64,000 bases of DNA from a virus: positions 38,599 to 102,598 of the IMG/VR virus record IMGVR_UViG_3300047586_000066; one strand, given 5' to 3'. Below are positions 1 through 16,865 of this stretch, in pieces (the stretch's first letter is position 1; each line of letters opens with the position of its first letter). A model generated the notes under the pieces. The model was not told where the DNA came from, ran no database searches, and saw only the letters and a program-made list of their open reading frames with translations. The position numbers and the translations under genes are program-made.

Positions 1-14
1 AAGGAGAGAAGCCA

Positions 15-464
15 ATGAGACTTTCATACACACGAACGGGTTTAATCACGAACGTTGAAACTGTGATCCACAGACTAGAAACAGCTCGCCAGCTATCCGA
101 GAAGGCGGAAGCTATCGAAGCAAAGCTCAAAGCGAAATACGAGGAGGAACTCCGGAAGTATGCCTCTGACATCTTGGAAATGCATGTCCACAAAAAGGAC
201 ACTTCGATTAAGATCGAAGTCGCCGCCGAGCATTGGAACGGCAACACCAAGATGCTGCATATCTCCCTGAAGCCTGCCGCTGGGATCCCTGTCAAATTCG
301 CCGAGGGGTTCAAAGATAAGAACACTCTGCCCAGCGTGGCCAGCATCGACAAGAAAATTCAGGAAGCCAAGGATATCCTTACCACACTGGTGAAGGCGAA
401 CGACAAGAACGTCATTATCACCACAAACTACGATCTTGAGAAGATGAAACCCTACCTGCAATAA
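15..464 (+). CDS. hypothetical early phage protein
   Basis: 149-aa ORF with AAGGAG RBS at 1-6. Confidence 0.7.
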   Translation: MRLSYTRTGLITNVETVIHRLETARQLSEKAEAIEAKLKAKYEEELRKYASDILEMHVHKKDTSIKIEVAAEHWNGNTKMLHISLKPAAGIPVKFAEGFKDKNTLPSVASIDKKIQEAKDILTTLVKANDKNVIITTNYDLEKMKPYLQ

Positions 465-539
465 GTGGCGAGTCCCCGACACGGATGAGACCCGCGTCGG
501 GAATCCGCTATTTACACAGCGGGGAAAGAGAGAAACGAA
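465..539 (+). promoter_or_regulatory. structured early-gene leader, copy 1
   Basis: long imperfect hairpin, then CCGCT-N8-AGCGG (505-522), then GGAAAGAGAGAAAC before ATG 540. Confidence 0.6.
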
Positions 540-1025
540 ATGGGAGAATTAACCAGTGGTAGAGAAAAAGCCGCTTATCATCGTGAAGTGGCCGATGCCC
601 AAGCCGATGTTGAGCAGCACCATACGAAGCTCGAAGCCGCTGCGGCCGTCAATAAACTTCGCCAGTTCATTGGCAAGACTCAGATTCGCTGTCTTAGCGA
701 TCTGTGCCGGGGAGAAGAGCGCCAGTATTTCATCGACAAACTGTGCGCCCTGGCCGAGCTGGTCTCCACAATGCCCAAGACATACGAGCAAGACGGCTTA
801 GGGAAAGAGGCTATCGCCTATCTGCATTACTTCACTTCGGGCACCGATCACTATATCACCGAGAAGGACATGGAAGCCGAGCAGCATCAGGCTTTCGGCT
901 CGGCTAACATCGGATACGGTCCTGAGCTGGGATACATTTCAATCGTTGAGCTTCTCTCCTGCGGAGCGGAACTTGATCTGTACTTTGAGCCGAAAACGCT
1001 TGCCACTATCGAAGATAGAAAGTGA
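540..1025 (+). CDS. DUF2958-like protein
   Basis: motifs PKTYEQDG..AYLHYF..YITE..AFG..ELGYISI.EL..ELDLYFEP recalled for DUF2958. Confidence 0.7.
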   Translation: MGELTSGREKAAYHREVADAQADVEQHHTKLEAAAAVNKLRQFIGKTQIRCLSDLCRGEERQYFIDKLCALAELVSTMPKTYEQDGLGKEAIAYLHYFTSGTDHYITEKDMEAEQHQAFGSANIGYGPELGYISIVELLSCGAELDLYFEPKTLATIEDRK

Positions 1026-1035
1026 AGGATTGGCC

Positions 1036-1476
1036 ATGGATGCAGAACAGATTGATAACTGGGGTTCTGAAGCATGGCGACAACCTGAACCTCTGCCAAC
1101 TGACGTGGTTTTATATTCAGAATGCGGACGTAGCTTGAACAATATCGATTTTCGTTCGCATTCCTTTAAGCTGGTCAAGGCTCAGTTCGGCGGATACTTC
1201 GCTTTGGTTCGTCATGGTGGAGGAGACGAGCGTCTCAGCCTTGGATATTCGCATATGGGAATCGAGAGAATGTTTTCACAGCTCGATTCCGATTCGCGCT
1301 ATTTGCTTTTGCATCAGTTTTTCGATATCGCTCACAATGCAAACCGAGCCGCTACTGACAACACAGCGGGTGAGTATCGCAAGGCTTTTGTCGATGGCAG
1401 GCTGAAAAAACGCAAGTTGCCAGCTCAAGGGATATGGAAAATCTGGATTGAACCTAAAACCGAAGGGAGAGCATGA
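1036..1476 (+). CDS. hypothetical protein
   Basis: ATG 1036 after GAAGGA, in frame with ORF 946..1476. Confidence 0.65.
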   Translation: MDAEQIDNWGSEAWRQPEPLPTDVVLYSECGRSLNNIDFRSHSFKLVKAQFGGYFALVRHGGGDERLSLGYSHMGIERMFSQLDSDSRYLLLHQFFDIAHNANRAATDNTAGEYRKAFVDGRLKKRKLPAQGIWKIWIEPKTEGRA

Positions 1477-1823
1477 TGCCAGATATTTCTTTGAAAAAAC
1501 TGCGCGAGGATTGCCCACAAGGCTACAATCTCGCAACCCTCGTACCTTTAGACCAGCCTTCTACGGACTTAACCCCGCTTCTCGAAGCTGTCCCAGTTCT
1601 GAAGGAAGCCTCCGGCGCTTTGGGTGTTCTCCGCTCTATGGACATTCCTGGTAAGCGTCAGGGAATCCAAAAGCAGATAGCCTTGGATGGTAAAGAGTAC
1701 AAACTTTGGCATCTTGTCTTTCTGCCTGAGCCGGTGGATAACGTTTACGCTACCCTTCATGTTTACAACTTCTTTCTTCACAGGGTTACAGAATCAGAAG
1801 CCAGACACAGAGAGGAGACCTAA
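1473..1823 (+). CDS. hypothetical protein
   Basis: ATGA overlap with upstream gene, GGGAG RBS. Confidence 0.6.
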   Translation: MMPDISLKKLREDCPQGYNLATLVPLDQPSTDLTPLLEAVPVLKEASGALGVLRSMDIPGKRQGIQKQIALDGKEYKLWHLVFLPEPVDNVYATLHVYNFFLHRVTESEARHREET

Positions 1824-1824
1824 A

Positions 1825-2244
1825 ATGGAACTGAACGAAGCCGTTGAACTGGTCCTCAAACTTGCGCGGGAGTCAATCTCTTGGGATCTTATTGAAGTCA
1901 GAAAGGGACAGATTGAAGCCTGCAATTTAATCGAGGACTTTGCTGTGAATCACCTGGGACAAGATGACATTGGCGATCAATGCTGTTTTGTCCGTTCTTC
2001 GGGTACCGGGTGGTTTTGTTGGACGCATAAACACTTATGTCCCGGCCCTCTGCCCTACTGCGATCAAGAGCCCTGGGAAACTCCGCTAGGCCCGCGTGAA
2101 ATGCAAGCCGTCCGGACCTTATGGGATGCTCTCAGCGAGATCCTTGAAGACTCCTCGATTGCAACCTATCTGCCTCCAGAGCTACGGGCTAATGGACTGA
2201 AAGCTATCGAAAAAGCTGTAGACGCTTTCCCAGTGGAGGCATAG
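1825..2244 (+). CDS. hypothetical protein with Cys/His cluster
   Basis: GAGGAG RBS, ATG 1825; CC..CWTHKHLC..C. Confidence 0.6.
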   Translation: MELNEAVELVLKLARESISWDLIEVRKGQIEACNLIEDFAVNHLGQDDIGDQCCFVRSSGTGWFCWTHKHLCPGPLPYCDQEPWETPLGPREMQAVRTLWDALSEILEDSSIATYLPPELRANGLKAIEKAVDAFPVEA

Positions 2245-2246
2245 TC

Positions 2247-2489
2247 ATGAAGATCTACACTGGGAAAGCCACAATCAATAATTCAAGATTCGACCGAACC
2301 TACCGATTCCGTGTCTTTGCCACAAGCTATCACATGGCGGCAGCGCGAGCCATCAAGGTCGCAAAGAAGGAATTCAGGCTCAGCCAAGGACGAACTAAAA
2401 TCGCCTATATGGGCATTCCACATATTGAACAGCTTTCTAATCCCGTGATCCCTGCCGAGTGGGTAGATCAGGCATGGCTCATTGTTTGA
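2247..2489 (+). CDS. hypothetical protein
   Basis: GGAGG RBS, tight packing. Confidence 0.6.
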   Translation: MKIYTGKATINNSRFDRTYRFRVFATSYHMAAARAIKVAKKEFRLSQGRTKIAYMGIPHIEQLSNPVIPAEWVDQAWLIV

Positions 2490-2560
2490 TTCTGGAGGCA
2501 ACGACGCGGGATAGCCCGTGCCATTGCTCCTTGGATCACCCAAGGGGAAAGAGGGGAACC
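2490..2560 (+). promoter_or_regulatory. structured early-gene leader, copy 2
   Basis: long hairpin, then CCTTGG-ATCAC-CCAAGG (2529-2545), then GGAAAGAGGGGAACC before TTG 2561. Confidence 0.6.
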
Positions 2561-2812
2561 TTGAAAAGATCAATGCGCGTTATCTCAGCCATTCTGTGGC
2601 TTGCTCTCGCCGGGCTTGCCGCTGACAAGGCAGTTCAGGAACGGCCCAAAGTCCAATGTGCCGGTATCACTAAAGCCGGATTACGCTGCAAGCGCATCGT
2701 GAAACCGCCTGCCATATATTGCTGGCAGCATAAGGCACAGGCTTCGAAGAAAGCCGAATGCCATACCGATGCAGAGTGCGAACGCATGTACGGGAAACTT
2801 TTCCACAACTAG
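2561..2812 (+). CDS. small exported Cys-motif protein (DUF5763-like)
   Basis: signal-like VISAILWLALAGLAA; CAGITKAGLRCKR..YCWQH; start TTG 2561 or ATG 2573. Confidence 0.55.
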   Translation: MKRSMRVISAILWLALAGLAADKAVQERPKVQCAGITKAGLRCKRIVKPPAIYCWQHKAQASKKAECHTDAECERMYGKLFHN

Positions 2813-2886
2813 ACTCTGGACTTGAAGATGTGGGCACAGCCCATGCCTTCGAGCCTTGGGTTACCCAGGGGGAAAGAGAGAAACCG
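2813..2886 (+). promoter_or_regulatory. structured early-gene leader, copy 3
   Basis: long hairpin, then CCTTGGG-TTA-CCCAGGG (2854-2870), then GGAAAGAGAGAAACC before ATG 2887. Confidence 0.6.
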
Positions 2887-3102
2887 ATGGCCAATTATAA
2901 AGTGTGGGTTCAAATCGAAGTACAGCCCGAAATAAAAGATCCTTACAATGTTGACGAGCCCGTTGACATCATCGAAGTTGATACCCTTCCAAAAGCCCGT
3001 CGCATAGTCAATCAGATCATCGACCTTTTCACCGATGAGGAAACCATTGCCCACTGGAAGAGAACCAAAATCTATCCGTTTGAAAGGAGCAAAAATGTCT
3101 GA
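2887..3102 (+). CDS. hypothetical protein
   Basis: ATG 2887 after leader motif. Confidence 0.65.
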   Translation: MANYKVWVQIEVQPEIKDPYNVDEPVDIIEVDTLPKARRIVNQIIDLFTDEETIAHWKRTKIYPFERSKNV

Positions 3103-3982
3103 ATATGTCATTTGGCAGAGGGGTTACTATATCCCTCCTTCTCATCAGCTACCCGCTGGACCGGATGAACCTTTATTGCTCCCTGAGAATTGTGAGACAA
3201 TCATGAACGCTGAAGCGCCGGAAGGATGGCAGAAGATTGACGCGATTGTCGAACGGACTTCTACTGAAGGAGTTCAGGAAGCCCTGGAAGAAGCTGAAGC
3301 CGCGAAGAAACCAAAGCGCCACTGGGTAATGGACTACTTCAGAGGCAATGAGAAGGACGGTTATGTCTGTGTGCCGCCCTGGCTCAATGAACAGAAAGCG
3401 CCAAAGCTCCAGCCTGGTCCGATTGCCCGGATCGACAGGAATTATACCGTGACCGTGAAGCGGCTGACCGATAACATCAAGAACAATCTCAGTCAATACG
3501 AGAAGCATCTCGGCAAGAAGGTCGGCGCTTATGCCTGTGTCGCAACGGACGGACACCGGGCTTTACTGGTCCGCGATGCACTCAAGGATGGCAAACACCG
3601 AAAGAAATGGCCTGTCAACGGTATTCCGAAGCCCACCGATCCCAACTTCGTTATATCTGATCCTGAGATTATAAACGGGCTTCGACGGCTGGGGACTGTC
3701 ACCAAAGGGGAGAAATATCCTTCCTGGGTGACTTTCTCTCTTTCCGCTGAAGAGGGGAGACTCGTTCTCTCCTCTTCAGTTCCCGACATTAAGGGGACGG
3801 AGGTCTACGAATGCCAGAGCACGGCGTCTATCGAGTTCTCCGTGAATACTGAGTTTATGATTGCGGCTTGTGGCTCCTGGCCGCTGATCTGCTATTTCAA
3901 AGACAATGTGAGCCCGTTGATCTTCATGCCCAAAACCAAAGCCCGAGAATTCATGTACGTGGTTATGCCCGTACAGAAATGA
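3095..3982 (+). CDS. protein with C-terminal DNA polymerase III beta-clamp-like region
   Basis: VATDGHR motif and terminal FMYVVMPV are DnaN signatures; unrelated N-terminal ~130 aa. Confidence 0.6.
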   Translation: MSEYVIWQRGYYIPPSHQLPAGPDEPLLLPENCETIMNAEAPEGWQKIDAIVERTSTEGVQEALEEAEAAKKPKRHWVMDYFRGNEKDGYVCVPPWLNEQKAPKLQPGPIARIDRNYTVTVKRLTDNIKNNLSQYEKHLGKKVGAYACVATDGHRALLVRDALKDGKHRKKWPVNGIPKPTDPNFVISDPEIINGLRRLGTVTKGEKYPSWVTFSLSAEEGRLVLSSSVPDIKGTEVYECQSTASIEFSVNTEFMIAACGSWPLICYFKDNVSPLIFMPKTKAREFMYVVMPVQK

Positions 3983-4188
3983 GGATTATGGCTCTTACCT
4001 TGGAATCAGCTTTGATCGTGGCTCGCAATATTCGAGACATTGACAAGCCCTATCAGCCGGATAGCCCGCTTCCCTCCTGCCAGGAAGCTCTGGAGATTAT
4101 CGAAGATGCTCTTGGCCGCTATGACTTCAACTGGATCACTGGACAGGATGCCCGCGACCTACTCCGAAAGGAGTCTGGCTATGAATAA
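3979..4188 (+). CDS. hypothetical protein
   Basis: overlap-coupled ORF; start 3979 or 3988. Confidence 0.55.
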   Translation: MRIMALTLESALIVARNIRDIDKPYQPDSPLPSCQEALEIIEDALGRYDFNWITGQDARDLLRKESGYE

Positions 4189-4498
4189 AAGTCAATACGT
4201 TAGACCATTTGACAAACTTAACGACATGAAAGAAGACGCGAGGGGATTGCTTGTACGCATCGCCTCACTACACAGTCATTGCAGTCATGCCGAAGAATTT
4301 GGGCTTTATTCCTCCGACCATAGCGCCGTAGCCCATGCCTTTCGTTGTGCGGCAGAGCTTTATGTCGCACTTGAGGATACTGAAGAGAATGCAAGTTTCT
4401 ACCAAGACTTTGATAGATGGGAAAGACGCAGCAAAGAAGAGGCGGCAAAGGCGCTTCGTGATCGTATTCATGACGCCGAGTCAAAATCGAAAGCCTGA
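4181..4498 (+). CDS. hypothetical protein
   Basis: AAGGAG RBS, ATG 4181. Confidence 0.6.
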   Translation: MNKSQYVRPFDKLNDMKEDARGLLVRIASLHSHCSHAEEFGLYSSDHSAVAHAFRCAAELYVALEDTEENASFYQDFDRWERRSKEEAAKALRDRIHDAESKSKA

Positions 4499-4574
4499 TG
4501 ATCGACCACTTGGCTTGTGCACTAGTGCACAAGCCTGGAGGCCGCTGCTATCAGCGGGGAAGGAGAGATTCTCT
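4499..4574 (+). promoter_or_regulatory. structured early-gene leader, copy 4, containing a GTGCAC tandem palindrome
   Basis: perfect palindrome GGCTTGTGCACTAGTGCACAAGCC, then CCGCTG-CTAT-CAGCGG (4542-4557), then GGAAGGAGAG. Confidence 0.55.
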
Positions 4575-4964
4575 ATGGATGAAAAGAAAGAGCCGATGCC
4601 GGACGTGAATCGCAGCCCAATCGGCCAACGGGAATGGCTCGAAGAAGGCAAGCGGCTATTCGGCATGCCTGCAACAAAATGGAAGTTCATGTGTCCTGTC
4701 TGCAAGGGCATTCAGACAATGGACGACTTCATAGTAAGGAACCTCGATCATGACCTAGTGTACCAGGAATGCATCGGAAGACATATTCCCGGCGCTCAGG
4801 ATCGTTTCCTGAAGAGCAAGCGGCAGGTCGGCCCATGTGACTATGCAGCATATGGGCTCATTCATCTTGGTCGAACTGTTAAATACGAGGACAGGAAGGG
4901 AATAAAAATGCCTTCTATCCAGGCTTTCCCGTTTGCTCTCGATTTGAAGGAGGGATTACTATGA
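4575..4964 (+). CDS. VVA0879-like Cys-rich phage protein
   Basis: EW..EG.RLFG..WKF.CPVC..QECIGR..CDYAAYGL pattern. Confidence 0.65.
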   Translation: MDEKKEPMPDVNRSPIGQREWLEEGKRLFGMPATKWKFMCPVCKGIQTMDDFIVRNLDHDLVYQECIGRHIPGAQDRFLKSKRQVGPCDYAAYGLIHLGRTVKYEDRKGIKMPSIQAFPFALDLKEGLL

Positions 4965-5200
4965 GATACATAATTCTAAGCTGGGACAATGAGGAGGAGC
5001 AGACCTTTTACGATATTGTCCAAGCCGAAACCACAGAAAAAGCCAGAGAACTCGTCAAGAAAGTCCGGGACAATTATGCTGAAATAATTGCCTCATTTGA
5101 TGCCGAGGATCTCCGCTCTATGGCAGACCGTATCGCAAGAGCGCCTGAAGACGAAGTTATTTCAGCATCCAACTGGAAGAAATTCAAGGAGGCGTCTTGA
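4961..5200 (+). CDS. hypothetical protein
   Basis: GGAGGG RBS, overlap-coupled. Confidence 0.6.
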   Translation: MRYIILSWDNEEEQTFYDIVQAETTEKARELVKKVRDNYAEIIASFDAEDLRSMADRIARAPEDEVISASNWKKFKEAS

Positions 5201-5463
5201 TGGCTAGAACGATCCAATCTCTTACCCTTTCCGAGATGGACTGCAAAGGGCGCAACGGTTATTTCAACCACGGCAGGACTGAGATTTGGTCCTCCGGCAA
5301 TCCCGTTGATGGAATTACGATTTACGTCCAGGTCTACAGCAAGAAGACAGGCCAAAGTCCTCCGCTTCAGTTCCACGGCCCTGTGGCTGTGATCCTCCAA
5401 TACTTCGCCGAGCTGGCACGAAATTGCATGGAAGTATCCCGAGAAGCAGGAGGCAACCAATGA
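5197..5463 (+). CDS. hypothetical protein
   Basis: AGGAGG RBS, overlap-coupled. Confidence 0.6.
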   Translation: MMARTIQSLTLSEMDCKGRNGYFNHGRTEIWSSGNPVDGITIYVQVYSKKTGQSPPLQFHGPVAVILQYFAELARNCMEVSREAGGNQ

Positions 5464-5744
5464 AAGAACCCAAAGAAGTCATTTGCCCAATGTGCGGAGG
5501 GAATCGGCTGAAGGTCGGGCAGGTCTCCTACAACACTCAGGTCTATAGCCCAGACTGGGAAAAGAACGGCGACGATGAAGAATGGAGCGCGTCAGATTAC
5601 AGTCTTGACCAAAACCGTTACATTGTCTCGATCTACTGTCAGGATTGCTCCGAGAATTGCGAGGATACCGATCTGACCGATCTTGCCATTGAGGCTGGCT
5701 GGGAGATCTACGATGAAGATTCTTTTAAGCTGAAAACGAAGTAG
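5460..5744 (+). CDS. acidic zinc-ribbon protein
   Basis: CPMC ... CQDC, AGGAGG RBS. Confidence 0.6.
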   Translation: MKEPKEVICPMCGGNRLKVGQVSYNTQVYSPDWEKNGDDEEWSASDYSLDQNRYIVSIYCQDCSENCEDTDLTDLAIEAGWEIYDEDSFKLKTK

Positions 5745-5745
5745 C

Positions 5746-6420
5746 TTATTCGTCAGGATCGGGGATGCTTTCGTCTTCAGAATCTTCGAAAACGTCTCCT
5801 TCGGTAGGGGCGACTTCGGTCGCCTCTGCCTCAATCGTCTCGCCTTCGGGCTCAATCGTCTCAGGGAGGGCGACTTGTCTGGATTGCATTTTACTCATAA
5901 CTCGACGCAAAAGATCTTCGCTGCTATTGACGCCGCTGGGCGGCGTTGCCCCTCCTCCGATGCTGAGACTTCTCTGGTCAACGTGGACGTTGATCCCCCC
6001 AGGTTTTTCCTGCATGCCCGTGGCTTCACGGTATTCCTTCATGACGGAATGCGGGCTCAATCCCACGGCGAGATAATCCTTTGCTTCGAGGCTGAGCGCC
6101 GTGTTCAAGAGTTGGCGGTATTTCTTTCCTTCAGTTCTTTGAATCAAAATCCTGTTTCTATCGTTCTCATGGGAAATCAACGTCCGGGTGGGCAGCAACG
6201 ATTGGATGTGCTGAATATCCATCTCGATCTCTTCGAGAGAGCACTCTATCCCTTGAGCATTGAGGAATTTAACAATCTCCTCCTCTGCAAAACCCGAAAT
6301 AAAATGAGTATAAACCGTGGAGGCGCGACCGTGCTGCGCGTAGTCGTCCTTCCCAATCTGTTTTATCTCTGGCGGAGGTCCGCTTTTTGTGACAGCCCAC
6401 TCGAATCCTTGTCGTGCCAT
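5746..6420 (-). CDS. hypothetical protein, possibly terminase small subunit-like
   Basis: lone minus-strand 224-aa ORF; helical N-terminus, very acidic tail; function is a guess. Confidence 0.5.
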   Translation of the reverse strand: MARQGFEWAVTKSGPPPEIKQIGKDDYAQHGRASTVYTHFISGFAEEEIVKFLNAQGIECSLEEIEMDIQHIQSLLPTRTLISHENDRNRILIQRTEGKKYRQLLNTALSLEAKDYLAVGLSPHSVMKEYREATGMQEKPGGINVHVDQRSLSIGGGATPPSGVNSSEDLLRRVMSKMQSRQVALPETIEPEGETIEAEATEVAPTEGDVFEDSEDESIPDPDE

Positions 6421-8557: not shown

Positions 8558-8794
8558 ATGGCAAAAGAATATCACAAGAAATGGCCTTATCCGAAAGGTA
8601 CGTTGGCAATTCTGAAACCTACCTGGGTGTCGGTTTTCGATAAGATTTTGGTCAAGACCACAACTAAGGCTTCCTTGGCACGGCACGGAGAATGGATAGT
8701 TAAAATACGTCGTGCTGAACCTCCTCGAATAAGTCTGGGAGCTTGGTCCGTTTCTTTTTTGCAGAAAGTTCGAGTAAAGAAAGGAACGATATGA
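8558..8794 (+). CDS. small basic hypothetical protein
   Basis: exactly fills the gap between helicase and recombinase. Confidence 0.5.
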   Translation: MAKEYHKKWPYPKGTLAILKPTWVSVFDKILVKTTTKASLARHGEWIVKIRRAEPPRISLGAWSVSFLQKVRVKKGTI

Positions 8795-9378
8795 GCCGTA
8801 TCTATTTAACTGAAAAGGAAATTCATTTGGTTCTTGGGCTGGCGAAGGATATTAAGCGGGATTATGCCTTGCTGCATCTCATGGCTTCCACGGGGCTGAG
8901 ATCCTCGGACCTGCTTCGCCTGAAGATCAAGGATATGATCGACCAGGATGGAGACATCATCCGTCTGCTTCGTCTCAAAATGAAGAAAACCGGACTGTAT
9001 ATCGAGCATCCCCTCCGCGATGACTGCCGCGAAGCCATCCGCGAATGGCTTGGCAGCCGGGAAGACTCGAACCCCTGGCTATTCTGTTCCCTGAATCCCG
9101 GCTGGGTGAATAAGAACATGCCGCTCAGCCGGGTTCACCATCACAAAATGATGAAGAAGTACCTGGGCGCTATCCGCCATGGGTCCGAGCTGCAAGGAAG
9201 CTCAACGCATACCCTGCGCCGGAGCGTGGCGAAGCTGATCCACAATAAGACTGGCAAGATCGCCGTGGCTCAAAAGTTCCTGGGGCATACGAGTCCCGCG
9301 AACACGTCCCTTTACATTGATCCGGACGAATTAAAGGAAACCGCAAATAAGATTGTCTTGGAGGAATGCCAGTGGTAG
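8791..9378 (+). CDS. tyrosine recombinase, catalytic domain only
   Basis: TGLRSSDLL (R), HTLRRS (HxxR), LGH..TSLY (H,Y); 195 aa. Confidence 0.88.
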   Translation: MSRIYLTEKEIHLVLGLAKDIKRDYALLHLMASTGLRSSDLLRLKIKDMIDQDGDIIRLLRLKMKKTGLYIEHPLRDDCREAIREWLGSREDSNPWLFCSLNPGWVNKNMPLSRVHHHKMMKKYLGAIRHGSELQGSSTHTLRRSVAKLIHNKTGKIAVAQKFLGHTSPANTSLYIDPDELKETANKIVLEECQW

Positions 9379-9388
9379 AGTACCGAAA

Positions 9389-9952
9389 ATGTTCAAGGGA
9401 CCCAAATCGGCGCATTCAGAGGGCGGAAAAGTAATGGCCAAACGCCAACGCGAAGCTGCTCTACAGCGATACCTTACTGATCCCAAGATTTGCCAATTTT
9501 GTAATCGAACAATTCTTATGCGTTTGGGTCAGAAGACTTCAGAAGTAAAAGTTAAGAAATTCTGCAACCATTCATGTGCGGCTGCATTTTCCAACAAAAG
9601 TCGCAGAAAAACACGATTCTGTAAATGTGGCTCAATCCTTGAAGGGAAAAGAACTCTTTGCCCCGATTGTCTCCCAGCCCGCAAAGAGGCAGCTTTACTG
9701 AAAACAAAAGCAGAAGTAAGGCGTACCACTCTCCATACACATGCCCGGCGACGTTGCCCTGCTAAGTCTTGCGAATCCTGCGGATATTCCAAATTTACAG
9801 AAGTATGTCATATCCGCAAAGTGGAGGATTTTCCAGATGAAGCCACTCTTGAGGAAATCAACAGCCCAGAAAATATGATTCGCCTTTGTCCTAATTGCCA
9901 TTGGGAGCTGGATCGTGGTATGCTCGACATCTCACGAATTAGAGCGGGCTAG
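9389..9952 (+). CDS. HNH endonuclease with Zn-finger N-terminus
   Basis: CESC..EVCHIR..NSPENMIRLCPNCHWELD; KFCNHSCAA. Confidence 0.85.
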   Translation: MFKGPKSAHSEGGKVMAKRQREAALQRYLTDPKICQFCNRTILMRLGQKTSEVKVKKFCNHSCAAAFSNKSRRKTRFCKCGSILEGKRTLCPDCLPARKEAALLKTKAEVRRTTLHTHARRRCPAKSCESCGYSKFTEVCHIRKVEDFPDEATLEEINSPENMIRLCPNCHWELDRGMLDISRIRAG

Positions 9953-10028
9953 AGTATGGGTCACTCGCCGGTCTCATAATCCGGTAGTCGAAAGACATAG
10001 GACGGTTCGAGTCCGTCGCCCGCTCCCA
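9943..10028 (+). tRNA. tRNA with CAT anticodon (Met/fMet-like) and long variable arm
   Basis: acceptor AGCGGGC/GCCCGCT, D stem GAGT/ACTC, loop CTCATAA (CAT 9975-9977), T arm GACGG-TTCGAGT-CCGTC, C73, encoded CCA. Confidence 0.85.
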
Positions 10029-10044
10029 AATCTTCCCAATTTAC

Positions 10045-10073
10045 TTGACGATTTCATATACCGATGTTAAATT
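10045..10073 (+). promoter_or_regulatory. sigma70-type promoter
   Basis: TTGACG-17 nt-TAAATT with extended TG. Confidence 0.65.
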
Positions 10074-10079
10074 GCTGAT

Positions 10080-10160
10080 GTCCTACCAGTGGCGGCGTGT
10101 CCACTTGGTTTCTCTCTTGGGGCTGCGACTATATCGGAGTTGCAGCCCCATTCCTTTTTT
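10080..10160 (+). ncRNA. candidate ~80-nt small RNA
   Basis: lies between the promoter at 10045-10073 and a terminator; 5' hairpin, TTGGTTTCTCTCTT tract, no plausible ORF. Confidence 0.45.
10118..10160 (+). terminator. intrinsic terminator
   Basis: TGGGGCTGCGACT-ATATCGG-AGTTGCAGCCCCA followed by TTCCTTTTTT. Confidence 0.75.
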
Positions 10161-15534: not shown

Positions 15535-16865
15535 TCTTGCTCCTGATAGAGATTGCTGAAGGTAGAATAGTGTCTCTCAAACGCCATCGAGAATGAACCG
15601 GTCATGCCGTTCCTTTGTTTCCCGATGATTACATCGGCCAGTCCGGCATTCTCTTCTGTTTCTCGGGCGAGTTCCGGCCGATGCAGGAGGATAACCACGT
15701 CGGCGTCCTGTTCAATCTGCCCAGACTGCCGAAGATCCGAGAGTTTGGGAGTCTGGTCTCGGCGCTTCTCTGTGGACCTGGAGAGCTGGGCGGCGGCGAT
15801 GACTGACGCATTTGTGCTTTTTGCCATGTTCTTTAGGGCAACGGATACGGCGCCGATTTTCTCGACATCGTTCGCCCGCTGAAGATGCTTTGGGGGACTG
15901 ACAAGCTGGAGGTAGTCGATTAGGATCACAGGGATCTCGGTCGGAATCCTTCGAGTCCTGGACCTCATGTCCGACACGGTTAATGCTGAGCTGTCATCAA
16001 TCCAGATCGGCAACGCGGAGAGGTCTCCGGCAGCACGGCTTAGCCTGTTCCAATCCTCTTTGTTCATGAATCCGGTATTCATGCGTGTGAGATCCACGCG
16101 GGACATAGCCGACAGCATTCTCATAATCAGTTCCATTTCAGCCATTTCCAGGGAAAAGATAATAATCGGGGTGCCAATCTTCGCCATTTGGATCGCTATC
16201 CCGAGTAGCATGCTTGTTTTCCCATGCCCTGGTCTGCCGGCAATAATTACGAGATTCTTCCGATGAACGCCTGTGGGGATCATCCGATCCAGCTCGGAGA
16301 ATCCCAGCTTGAAGCCTCCAGAGGTTTTATGGTTGGCAATATTTTCTATGGTTCGGAATGCTTCAGAGACAAGATCGGAGATCTCCCGCGGTCCTTCTTT
16401 CCGCTGCATCTTTGACAGCTCGCCGTCGAGCCGGATGAATGCGTCGTCAATGACATCCTTGAACGGCTGTTCATCGTAGCAGCGGGTCATCAGTTCATTT
16501 CCGGCCTGGACTCCGATCCTAAGCGCCGCCTTCTCTCGAACGATGCTGGCGTAATGCTCTATGTTCATAGCCCTTGGAAGTCCGTCAGTTAAGCTGACCA
16601 GGTAAGCAGCTCCTCCGGTGGCTTCAAGCTCATTCGAACTCTGTAGAGCATTCTTCAGGGTTATCAGATCCAAGCCGCTTCCGGAGTCAATCACTTCGAC
16701 CATCTTAGCGAAGATCCTCCTATGGCTGTCGAGGTAAAAATCGGTCGCCTCGATAGTCCCCAGGGCGACATTGATTGCTTTCTCTTCAAGCAGGATGGCT
16801 CCGAGAATCGATCGCTCAGCCTCAAGGTTATTCGGAAGCATCTTTTCCAAGCTGATGTCTGCCAT
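15531..16865 (-). CDS. dnaB: replicative DNA helicase
   Basis: EAERSILGAIL, AGRPGHGKT, FSLEM, IDYLQL, QLSR, SDLRQSGQIEQDAD, KQRNG. Confidence 0.97.
   Translation of the reverse strand: MADISLEKMLPNNLEAERSILGAILLEEKAINVALGTIEATDFYLDSHRRIFAKMVEVIDSGSGLDLITLKNALQSSNELEATGGAAYLVSLTDGLPRAMNIEHYASIVREKAALRIGVQAGNELMTRCYDEQPFKDVIDDAFIRLDGELSKMQRKEGPREISDLVSEAFRTIENIANHKTSGGFKLGFSELDRMIPTGVHRKNLVIIAGRPGHGKTSMLLGIAIQMAKIGTPIIIFSLEMAEMELIMRMLSAMSRVDLTRMNTGFMNKEDWNRLSRAAGDLSALPIWIDDSSALTVSDMRSRTRRIPTEIPVILIDYLQLVSPPKHLQRANDVEKIGAVSVALKNMAKSTNASVIAAAQLSRSTEKRRDQTPKLSDLRQSGQIEQDADVVILLHRPELARETEENAGLADVIIGKQRNGMTGSFSMAFERHYSTFSNLYQEQE

What the first reader, a model, noticed from the sequence alone, without database searches (positions are those of the whole stretch)
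465..4574. Repeated structured leader in the four larger intergenic gaps of the early region
Seen: the gaps at 465-539, 2490-2560, 2813-2886 and 4499-4574 (71-76 nt) share one architecture: a long hairpin, a small hairpin whose sequence co-varies (CCGCT/AGCGG, CCTTGG/CCAAGG, CCTTGGG/CCCAGGG, CCGCTG/CAGCGG), then immediately GGAA(A/G)GAG(A/G)G and the start codon. In copies 1-3 the small hairpin's 5' strand can alternatively close the base of the long stem. Inference: a cis RNA module such as an RNase III-type processing site (T7 early region analogy), a conformational switch, or a gene-cassette boundary. The window start probably clips a fifth copy.
Basis: partly seen in the sequence, partly recalled or inferred. 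Interest (0 to 1): 0.7.

Follow-up and report, generated by a model that had tools for sequence, protein, structure and literature searches.

The report
Two-state RNA cassette between phage genes
An uncultivated peat-soil phage and four relatives separate many early genes with a roughly 80-base RNA module that can fold in two competing ways, one of which pairs the upstream stop codon, and that ends in a shared ribosome-binding box matched by a phage small RNA.

Summary
The window is part of a 102,598-bp virus record. It holds 7 copies of the module, 4 in the window and 3 upstream.

A covariance model finds 38 copies in 6 phage records, all on the sense strand and clustered in early regions. 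In each, a stop codon is followed by a long variable hairpin (P2), a short hairpin (P3) and a GGGGAAAGAGAG-type box, then the start codon.

- P2 and P3 are paired in 92.6% of cells, with compensatory change at 19 of 20 pairs.
- G·U outnumbers A·C 67 to 12, so the sense strand is what folds.
- A third helix, P1, pairs the stop-codon flank with the 5' arm and loop of P3. It excludes P3, covaries (85% paired; 0 of 5000 shuffles) and is about iso-energetic with P3.
- P1 plus P2 make about two helical turns.
- The box complements a conserved phage sRNA, and the two change together in one lineage.
- Cassettes also sit at gene-swap junctions between relatives.

The window start does not clip a copy; that gap holds a sigma-70-like promoter.

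The function is inferred. Most likely the module is an mRNA processing and stabilising punctuation mark with an sRNA-controlled ribosome-binding site. The scan had already noted this same stretch (e1-6005640), but no other DNA.

The parts
462..542 (+). Cassette copy 4 of 7 in the genome. Stop TAA 462-464. P1 5' strand 462-470. P2 hairpin 472-504. P3 5' arm 505-509, loop 510-517, 3' arm 518-522. P1 3' strand 506-514. Box 521-536. ATG 540-542.
   Evidence: (72.9 bits)
2487..2563 (+). Cassette copy 5. Stop TGA 2487-2489. P1 5' strand 2487-2492 plus 2494-2495. P2 2497-2528. P3 arms 2529-2534 and 2540-2545, loop 2535-2539. P1 3' strand 2529-2530 plus 2533-2538. Box 2544-2559. TTG start 2561.
   Evidence: (68.1 bits)
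2810..2889 (+). Cassette copy 6. Stop TAG 2810-2812. P1 5' strand 2812-2816 plus 2818-2819. P2 2821-2853. P3 arms 2854-2860 and 2864-2870, loop 2861-2863. Box 2869-2884. ATG 2887.
   Evidence: (75.4 bits)
4496..4577 (+). Cassette copy 7. Stop TGA 4496-4498. P2 4506-4541, with the genome's dispersed GTGCAC-TA-GTGCAC palindrome at its tip. P3 arms 4542-4547 and 4552-4557, loop 4548-4551. Box 4556-4571 (AAGGAG variant). ATG 4575. P1 is weakest here; the minimum-energy fold prefers P3.
   Evidence: (77.2 bits)
10045..10160 (+). Small-RNA unit whose exposed stretch at 10107-10118 is complementary to the cassette box. Promoter-like site 10045-10073. Terminator hairpin 10118-10150 followed by a T run.
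1..17 (+). Not a cassette. This is the ribosome-binding site and start of the first gene in the window. It follows a sigma-70-like promoter that lies just upstream of the window (L002 19543-19572).

Best explanation
This is a family of about 80-nt intercistronic RNA cassettes that punctuate the polycistronic early transcripts of a small clade of ~100-110-kb phages.

Shown:
- Each cassette starts at the upstream gene's stop codon and ends at the next start codon.
- It can adopt two exclusive folds. In fold A, P1 plus P2 form one irregular helix of about two turns, whose lower part pairs the stop codon and flank with the 5' arm and loop of P3.
- In fold B, P2 and a separate short hairpin P3 stand side by side.
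- The purine-rich box downstream is predicted to stay mostly single-stranded, and it is complementary to a conserved phage small RNA.

Inferred mechanism:
- Fold A is a substrate for a double-strand-specific endonuclease, most simply host RNase III, cutting at the conserved mismatch junction between P1 and P2.
- The cut would leave P2 as a 3' protective hairpin on the upstream message.
- The downstream message could then refold into P3 at its very 5' end, giving a 5' protective hairpin directly before a standard ribosome-binding box.
- A ribosome terminating on the paired stop codon must melt P1 and so favours fold B. Cutting would therefore depend on translation of the upstream gene.
- The small RNA can later silence all box-led genes together.
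- Because all copies share their ends, they also serve as crossover points where genes are swapped between phages.
For: Structure:
- 38 model hits in 6 records, all on the + strand.
- P2 and P3 are paired in 92.6% of cells against 57.3% in shuffles; 19 of 20 pairs carry compensatory change; slid controls give 40-48%.
- G·U 67 against A·C 12.

P1:
- In a fixed register, 175 of 205 cells are paired (85%) against 29-46% when slid and 54 +/- 3% when partners are shuffled (0 of 5000).
- Cognate flank-partner duplexes average -6.68 kcal/mol against -4.14 for non-cognate (0 of 20000 permutations, also within hairpin type).
- The three stop codons pair with matching partner triplets.
- The minimum-energy fold contains P1 in 31 of 38 copies and P3 in 5 of 38.
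- The two folds are balanced: median ddG 0.0, 26 of 37 within 3 kcal/mol, 18 favour each.

Geometry:
- A stop triplet starts 9-11 nt before P2 in 30 of 37 copies.
- P1 plus P2 total 19-23 bp in 29 of 37.
- P3 ends 13-20 nt before the start codon.

Box and context:
- The box is predicted unpaired (mean 0.76).
- No promoter and no T-tract terminator lies in any cassette, whereas the sRNA has a canonical T-tract terminator.
- sRNA homologues occur in 4 of 4 other complete cassette-bearing genomes. In G002 the exposed stretch is two bases shorter, matching its shorter boxes.
- 4 of the 8 non-self sites in the genome with 9 or more complementary bases are cassette boxes.
Against: - No RNA data exist for this phage, so no 5' or 3' end, cleavage or expression effect is shown.
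- Total helix length is only loosely constrained: the P1-P2 length correlation is -0.24 and the range is 10-23 bp.
- Copy 7 and four others prefer P3 outright.
- Two G002 copies have P1 without a stop codon in it, so stop-codon pairing is not obligatory.
- The phage encodes no RNase III of its own, and the host and its RNase III specificity are unknown.
- The box is a poor match to a canonical Shine-Dalgarno sequence, while neighbouring genes use GGAG-type sites. How it recruits ribosomes is open.
- The near-equal energies could simply reflect two short helices of similar size.
Confidence: 0.45

Rival explanations
1. The cassette is a ribosome-operated translational coupling switch with no cleavage. 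Termination at the paired stop codon melts P1, P3 snaps shut, and this conformer (or the compaction by two adjacent hairpins) promotes initiation, or ribosome hand-over, at the next gene.
For: The stop codon sits in a fixed register inside P1. P1 and P3 are exclusive, both conserved and iso-energetic. P2 begins where the mRNA entry of a terminating ribosome would lie; that is an inference from general ribosome geometry. P2 and P3 abut without a spacer.
Against: The box and start codon are predicted open in both folds, so there is no obvious sequestration for translation to relieve. Two copies lack a stop codon in P1.
Confidence: 0.2
2. The cassette is an RNA operator for a phage-encoded RNA-binding protein, such as a translational repressor or activator. 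The protein would recognise the invariant CC...GG hairpin base plus the GGGGAAAG box. This is the role proposed, and also untested, for SAS/ESAS in cluster K mycobacteriophages.
For: The C-G closing pairs and the GGGGAAAG run are nearly invariant in 37-38 of 38 copies across genomes whose cassette G+C ranges from 0.37 to 0.68. The sRNA complement does not cover GGGGAA. SAS/ESAS show the same start-associated layout (PMC3203893, passages read).
Against: No candidate protein was identified. The early genes are ORFans. P1 and P2 covariation is not explained by a protein that reads only P3 and the box.
Confidence: 0.12
3. The cassette is primarily a DNA-level recombination element: a crossover site for modular gene shuffling, PeSL-like by homologous exchange or attC-like by a recombinase. 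The RNA folds would be incidental.
For: A-[C]-E in G001 corresponds to A-[C]-O-[C]-E in G003 and A-[C]-L-[C]-E in G006. D-[C]-C corresponds to D-[C]-other, and C-[C]-K to C-[C]-F. 14 of 61 blastn block ends fall in cassettes against 5.1 expected (ends are paired, so not independent). Two G003 cassettes are 68 of 69 identical from stop codon to box, with unrelated flanks. A 211-aa tyrosine recombinase is conserved nearby.
Against: The G·U to A·C asymmetry and the two competing covarying helices indicate selection on a single sense strand. There is no promoter or terminator as in PeSLs. The recombinase scores far below the integron-integrase cut-off (25.8 against 265 bits) and lies next to a tRNA gene, as an ordinary integrase would. 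The sequence read shows no GTTRRRY-type core at the cassette ends.
Confidence: 0.08
4. The cassette is a transcriptional element: a partial terminator or attenuator without a U tract, or a put-like antiterminator RNA acting on RNA polymerase.
For: P2 is a very stable G+C-rich hairpin placed right after a gene. Two adjacent hairpins recall the put RNAs of phage HK022; that resemblance is recalled, not tested.
Against: No T run follows P2 or P3, while the sRNA of the same phage ends in a classic T-tract terminator. Seven in series would strongly attenuate an operon. put sites are promoter-proximal and few (recalled). Rfam gives no match even at E <= 1.
Confidence: 0.05

Closest known systems
RNase III processing sites between the early genes of coliphage T7 (R0.3 to R1.3; R1.1 is the model substrate)
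   Same: They are intercistronic hairpins inside a polycistronic early transcript. The helix is irregular, about two turns long, with an internal loop or mismatch. Conservation is of structure, not sequence. In T7, cleavage leaves a protective 3' hairpin (general features from PMC1540722, passages read; the T7 site list is recalled).
   Different: No cleavage is shown here and there is no sequence relation. These cassettes add a competing hairpin (P3), pair the upstream stop codon, and end in a shared box complementary to a phage sRNA. None of these features is known to me for the T7 sites.
PeSLs (promoter-early stem-loops) of T4-type phages (PMC2839356 abstract and outline read; PMC4122927 search listing only)
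   Same: They are short repeated regulatory cassettes in the ORFan-rich early or hyperplastic regions. They sit at the borders of insertions, deletions and replacements between related phages.
   Different: PeSLs are a sigma-70 promoter plus a terminator stem-loop. These cassettes have neither a promoter nor a T-tract terminator. They carry a ribosome-binding box and two competing helices instead.
SAS/ESAS (start-associated sequences and their extended form) of cluster K mycobacteriophages (PMC3203893 and PMC12699233, passages read)
   Same: A conserved asymmetric motif lies directly upstream of the start codons of a subset of non-structural genes, in one orientation. About half have an imperfect inverted repeat just upstream. 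The function is still untested.
   Different: ESAS arms have a subcluster-specific consensus sequence. Here the arms vary freely and are kept by compensatory change. The motif sequence is different. No stop-codon pairing, alternative fold or matching sRNA is reported in the passages I read.
REP/BIME extragenic palindromes of enterobacteria
   Same: They are transcribed, repeated intergenic palindromes inside operons that stabilise the upstream message against 3' exonucleases (recalled, not checked in a paper here).
   Different: REPs have a conserved sequence, occur genome-wide in the host in both orientations, and carry no ribosome-binding box or alternative helix.
Integron attC sites
   Same: A structure-conserved, sequence-variable imperfect palindrome follows each mobile gene, with conserved unpaired bases, and genes are exchanged at these sites.
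   Different: The sense strand folds here. There is no conserved core site and no integron integrase, attI or Pc. See the membership test.

Membership tests
T7-type RNase III processing site | Lies between cistrons of one polycistronic transcript | tested here: met
   All copies lie between same-strand ORFs. Sigma-70-like promoters lie upstream at genome 35033 and 38543, and none lies inside a cassette. That the genes share one transcript is itself inferred.
T7-type RNase III processing site | Double helix of about two turns, interrupted by an internal loop or mismatches | tested here: met
   P1 plus P2 total 19-23 bp in 29 of 37 copies. An A opposite C is conserved at the P1/P2 junction in 34 of 36.
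T7-type RNase III processing site | Cut by RNase III in vivo or in vitro | not testable with these tools
   No RNA data are available; no RNA holder was listed.
PeSL (T4-type phages) | Contains a strong sigma-70-like early promoter | tested here: not met
   None of the 7 own-genome cassettes carries a promoter-like site.
PeSL (T4-type phages) | Stem-loop acts as an intrinsic terminator | tested here: not met
   No T run follows P2 or P3, and the scan lists none of them. Actual termination was not assayed.
PeSL (T4-type phages) | Marks the borders of gene insertions and replacements between related phages | tested here: met
SAS/ESAS (cluster K mycobacteriophages) | 13-bp GGGATAGGAGCCC-type motif 3-8 bp before start codons | tested here: not met
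   The box here has a different sequence (GGGGAAAGAGAG type), although it is similarly placed.
SAS/ESAS (cluster K mycobacteriophages) | 17-bp imperfect inverted repeats with a conserved consensus per subcluster | tested here: not met
   P2 arms have no consensus. All 15 P2 pairs vary with changes on both sides.
Integron attC / gene cassette | Integron integrase with attI and Pc next to the array | tested here: not met
   The only tyrosine recombinase is a 211-aa protein at window 8743-9378. It scores 25.8 bits against a cut-off of 265 for integron integrase.
Integron attC / gene cassette | Conserved inverse-core and core sites at the ends of the palindrome | tested here: not met
   The P1 strands covary without a fixed sequence, and the 3' end is the purine box.
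Riboswitch or attenuator-type conformational switch | Two mutually exclusive, evolutionarily conserved helices | tested here: met
   P1 and P3 share the same strand, and their energies are balanced.
Riboswitch or attenuator-type conformational switch | Expression platform that hides a terminator or the ribosome-binding site in one state | tested here: not met
   The box is predicted unpaired (mean 0.76; above 0.7 in 23 of 37) and is outside both helices except for its first two G.
Any curated RNA family (Rfam 15, including its CRISPR direct-repeat models) | Match to a family covariance model | tested here: not met
   0 matches at gathering score over 64 kb, and 0 at E <= 1 over window 1-6000.

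The most novel reading that the evidence does not exclude
The cassette is a translation-history sensor and a gene-exchange joint in one. Each ribosome that terminates on the paired stop codon flips the RNA from the long two-turn helix (P1 plus P2) to the P3 fold. The flip decides whether the junction is cut and whether the next cistron, led by a box shared by the whole regulon, is stabilised, translated or handed to the phage sRNA for silencing. Because every cassette runs exactly from a stop codon to a start-proximal box, any gene can be dropped between two cassettes and is at once wired into this circuit. That would be a phage-borne, RNA-level analogue of an integron array.
Probability: 0.2. 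Interest if true: 0.85.

Novelty: new variant of a known kind. Interest (0 to 1): 0.68.

Why it matters
Repeated intercistronic signals in phage early regions are known, for example T7 RNase III sites, T4-type PeSLs and mycobacteriophage SAS/ESAS. For most of them the mechanism is unresolved.

This family gives an unusually clean comparative case:
- 38 copies carry three covarying helices.
- Two of the helices compete and are energetically balanced.
- One competing helix contains the upstream stop codon.
- A trans-acting sRNA changes together with the shared box in one lineage.

The family therefore yields concrete, testable predictions on how a phage couples translation, mRNA processing and coordinated shut-off of ORFan early genes. 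It also suggests how new genes are plugged into that circuit. If the two-state design is confirmed, it could serve as a compact part for building synthetic operons.

Tried and rejected
- **Rfam.** There were no matches at gathering score over 64 kb, or at E <= 1 over window 1-6000. Known RNA families, including Rfam's CRISPR repeat models, are therefore not supported. I had considered a phage repeat-mimic (RNA anti-CRISPR) from memory and dropped it, also because P3 arms and loops vary freely.
- **Promoter or terminator.** None lies in the cassettes.
- **Hairpin promoter for a virion or T7-like RNA polymerase.** The sense-strand G·U excess argues against a template-strand hairpin. The PF00940 search found nothing, but its control rang nowhere, so it is uninformative.
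- **Phage-encoded RNase III.** None was found with PF14622, and the control rang in 8 of 14 genomes.
- **Relatives through the protein after copy 4.** The search gave 27 loci of a widespread family (phrog_5203) with no cassette context; this route was abandoned.
- **Short box patterns in the collections.** These gave mostly chance hits. Of 119+ viral loci, only G003, G002 and G006, plus weak hits in L145 and L076, carried model hits. Of 118+ metagenome loci, L220, L269 and L299 (= G002) did, with L251 and L290 weak. Of 59 prokaryote-genome loci, only one borderline 24-bit hit appeared (L363), so no prophage or host was identified.
- **Text search for the 12-mer box.** It found 11 papers, none on phages. 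That is the only search behind my statement that I found no description of this box.
- **Sequencing runs.** No RNA holder was listed, and read laying was not used.
- **Early gene products.** 8 of 9 have no Pfam family; one is DUF7007.
- **First gene map.** It used a naive ORF caller and was messy. It was replaced by the cassette-anchored map.
- **First conformer comparison.** It was unfair to fold A and was replaced.
- **Rows dropped.** G008 and the G002 copy with a 46-nt insertion were left out (36 of 38 used). G008 was left out (37 of 38 used).
- **Supplements.** Supplementary files of the SAS/ESAS and PeSL papers were not seen and may hold further motif details.

Full report
**What is there.** Each holds a long hairpin, a short hairpin and the purine box. 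The 10-mer box pattern occurs 6 times in 64 kb against 1.22 expected (0 of 100 shuffles reach 6), and 4 of those are the gaps. Each gap folds better than its shuffles (z = -2.25 to -2.97). In copies 1-3 the best fold uses the 5' arm of the short hairpin to lengthen the long stem.

**More copies, and one wrong guess.** Reading the genome upstream of the window shows three more copies at genome 35929, 37004 and 38050. It also shows that the gap before the window's first gene is different. That gap carries a TTGACA-N18-TATAGT promoter-like site (11 of 12) and no hairpins. The guess of a clipped fifth copy is therefore wrong, but the family has 7 members here. A covariance model built from them (R1) finds these 7 and nothing else in the genome (67-80 bits; next best 18 bits), all on the + strand.

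**Relatives.**
- Exact-pattern scans followed by R1 searches found the module in four other complete phage records of 107-110 kb. G001 has 6 copies, G003 has 7, G002 has 11 and G006 has 6 (G006 has direct terminal repeats).
- One weak hit lies in a 68.6-kb fragment, G008. That makes 38 hits at E <= 0.01, all on the + strand and clustered within 4-10 kb.
- Metagenome and prokaryote-genome scans added only short pieces, the source contig of G002 and one borderline hit. No prophage or host emerged.
- Rfam has no match.

**Structure P2 and P3.**
- On the 38-row alignment, 92.6% of cells are paired, against 57.3 +/- 1.4% in shuffles and 40-48% when partners are slid.
- 19 of 20 pairs carry changes on both sides, and all 15 pairs of the long hairpin vary. 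This alignment was fitted to the model and so leans towards it.
- The independent MAFFT alignment of the 7 paralogues gives the same picture: 17 of 20 pairs are compensatory, and 90.6% of cells are paired against 66.1%.
- Paired cells hold 67 G·U but only 12 A·C. Selection therefore acts on the folded sense strand, as expected for RNA and not for a duplex-DNA protein site.

**A third, competing helix (P1).**
- The rows show that the 5' flank, usually starting at the stop codon itself, is complementary to the 5' arm and loop of the short hairpin. The partner triplet changes with the stop codon (TGA, TAA or TAG).
- In a fixed register counted from the two ends of P2, positions 5-10 are paired in 175 of 205 cells (85%). 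Slid registers give 29-46%, and shuffled partners give 54 +/- 3% (0 of 5000). Several positions show four or five pair types (36 of 38 copies used).
- Duplex energies of cognate flank-partner pairs average -6.68 kcal/mol against -4.14 for non-cognate pairs (0 of 20000 permutations, also when permuting only within the two short-hairpin types).
- P1 and P3 use the same nucleotides, so they exclude each other. In segments of about 85 nt the minimum-energy fold contains P1 in 31 of 38 copies, P3 in 5 and neither in 2.
- When each conformer is allowed the same sequence, the two are balanced. The median difference is 0.0 kcal/mol, 26 of 37 are within 3 kcal/mol, and 18 favour each side.

**Geometry.**
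- A stop triplet starts 9-11 nt before P2 in 30 of 37 copies.
- An upstream ORF of at least 30 codons ends in that flank in 33 of 38.
- P1 plus P2 total 19-23 bp in 29 of 37.
- P3 ends 13-20 nt before the start codon.
- An A facing a C is conserved at the P1/P2 junction in 34 of 36.

**The box and the small RNA.**
I checked it. It has a promoter-like site and a canonical hairpin plus T-run terminator. An exposed stretch at 10107-10118 is complementary to the box.
- Homologues lie a few kb downstream of the cassette cluster in all four other complete genomes.
- In G002 the exposed stretch lacks two U, and the G002 boxes lack the matching two A. In G001, G003 and G006 the complementary core is kept.
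- In this genome, 9 sites have 9 or more contiguous complementary bases. One is the sRNA gene itself and 4 are cassette boxes directly before start codons.
- The box is predicted mostly unpaired (mean 0.76) and lies outside P1 and P3 except for its first two G.

**Gene exchange at cassettes.**
- I anchored ORFs on the cassettes and clustered them. Family A is followed by one cassette and then family E in G001.
- In G003 an extra gene O plus a cassette lies between A and E. In G006 a different gene, L, plus a cassette lies there.
- Family D is followed by a cassette and family C in G003 and G006, but by an unrelated gene in this genome. Family C is followed by K in G001 and G003, but by F in G006.
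- Blastn block ends fall in cassettes 14 times out of 61 against 5.1 expected (p = 4e-4). The two ends of an alignment are not independent.
- Two cassettes within G003 are 68 of 69 identical from the stop codon through the box, with unrelated sequence on both sides.
- The cassette is therefore a discrete unit with defined ends, and genes are exchanged between copies.

**How it most likely works.**
- *Shown:* a sense-strand structure with two competing conserved folds; a fixed relation to the stop and start codons; an open shared box matched by a conserved sRNA; and no promoter or T-tract terminator.
- *Inferred:* fold A (P1 plus P2) has the length and interruptions typical of bacterial RNase III substrates. 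According to PMC1540722 (passages read), these are about two helical turns, and internal loops confine cleavage so that a protective 3' hairpin remains.
- A cut at the P1/P2 junction on the 3' side would leave P2 on the upstream message and would let the downstream message start with P3, directly followed by the box.
- A ribosome on the stop codon must open P1, so translation of the upstream gene should favour P3. The sRNA would then allow joint silencing of box-led genes.
- I give this combined model a probability of 0.45. Its rivals are a cleavage-free coupling switch, a protein operator, a mainly DNA-level recombination site and a transcriptional element. They are set out with their tests in the Rival explanations section.

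**Comparison with known systems.**
- The layout works like the T7 early RNase III sites, but cleavage is untested and the competing hairpin, stop-codon pairing and sRNA-matched box are additions.
- It behaves like the PeSLs of T4-type phages at the genome level but fails their two defining parts, the promoter and the terminator (PMC2839356, abstract read).
- It resembles SAS/ESAS of cluster K mycobacteriophages in placement, but differs in sequence and in having covarying rather than consensus arms (PMC3203893 and PMC12699233, passages read). The function of SAS/ESAS is still described there as needing experimental verification.
- It is not an integron array.
- I therefore class it as a new variant of a known kind.

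**Limits.** There is no expression or end-mapping data, and the host is unknown. The 38 copies come from five to six related phages and include orthologues, so cells are not independent events. Energy values are predictions.

Noticed in passing
window 4517-4530; genome-wide in G000 (10 sites, e.g. genome 34940, 37690, 38072, 43115): The tip of P2 in two cassettes of each genome carries that phage's own dispersed palindrome. In this genome it is GTGCAC-N2/3-GTGCAC (10 sites; reversed control 0). In G001, G003 and G006 it is GTAAAC-CNG-GTTTAC (7, 8 and 9 sites). G002 cassettes show other recurring palindromes. It looks like a lineage-specific operator or similar DNA site lodged where any palindrome is tolerated.
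   Followed up: partly
L002 18674-18729 (genome 37674-37729, upstream of the window): This is a half cassette. A stop codon is followed 10 nt later by a P2-like hairpin carrying the GTGCAC palindrome. There is no P3 or box, only an ordinary GGAGG site before the next ATG. The stop-to-hairpin spacing matches that of full cassettes.
   Followed up: no
window 1-17 and L002 19543-19572: The first gene of the window follows a near-consensus sigma-70-like promoter. Its ribosome-binding site (AAGGAGAGAAGCC) can still pair with the sRNA stretch if two G·U pairs are allowed. The sRNA regulon may therefore extend beyond the hairpin-bearing cassettes (pairing judged by eye).
   Followed up: no
window 8743-9378 (+): A tyrosine recombinase of 211 aa with only the catalytic domain (PF00589, 94.9 bits; below every NCBIfam cut-off, with its best resemblance to Xer and invertase types). 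It lies just before tRNA-Met (9943-10028) and the sRNA. Its family was found in all five early regions by the rough map.
   Followed up: partly
genome 34932-34960, minus strand (L002 about 15932-15960): The first gene of the divergent leftward unit also has a GGGGAAAGAG box directly before its ATG, preceded by the GTGCAC palindrome but by no cassette hairpins.
   Followed up: no
L002 18006-18016 (5' flank of the cassette at genome 37004): The flank reads GGTTCGAGTCC, the same 11 bases as the T-arm of the phage's tRNA-Met gene (window 10004-10014). This may be coincidence. It is of interest only because this genome is reported to carry tRNA-mimic RNAs elsewhere.
   Followed up: no
L183 9691-9772 and 11415-11496 (G003): Two cassettes in one genome are 68 of 69 identical, with unrelated flanks. 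The single difference makes or breaks one P2 pair. This points to a recent copy or gene conversion.
   Followed up: yes
L002 18077-18673: The gene after the cassette at genome 37004 is a DUF7007 protein (E = 1.8e-35). The other 8 early products tested have no Pfam family.
   Followed up: no
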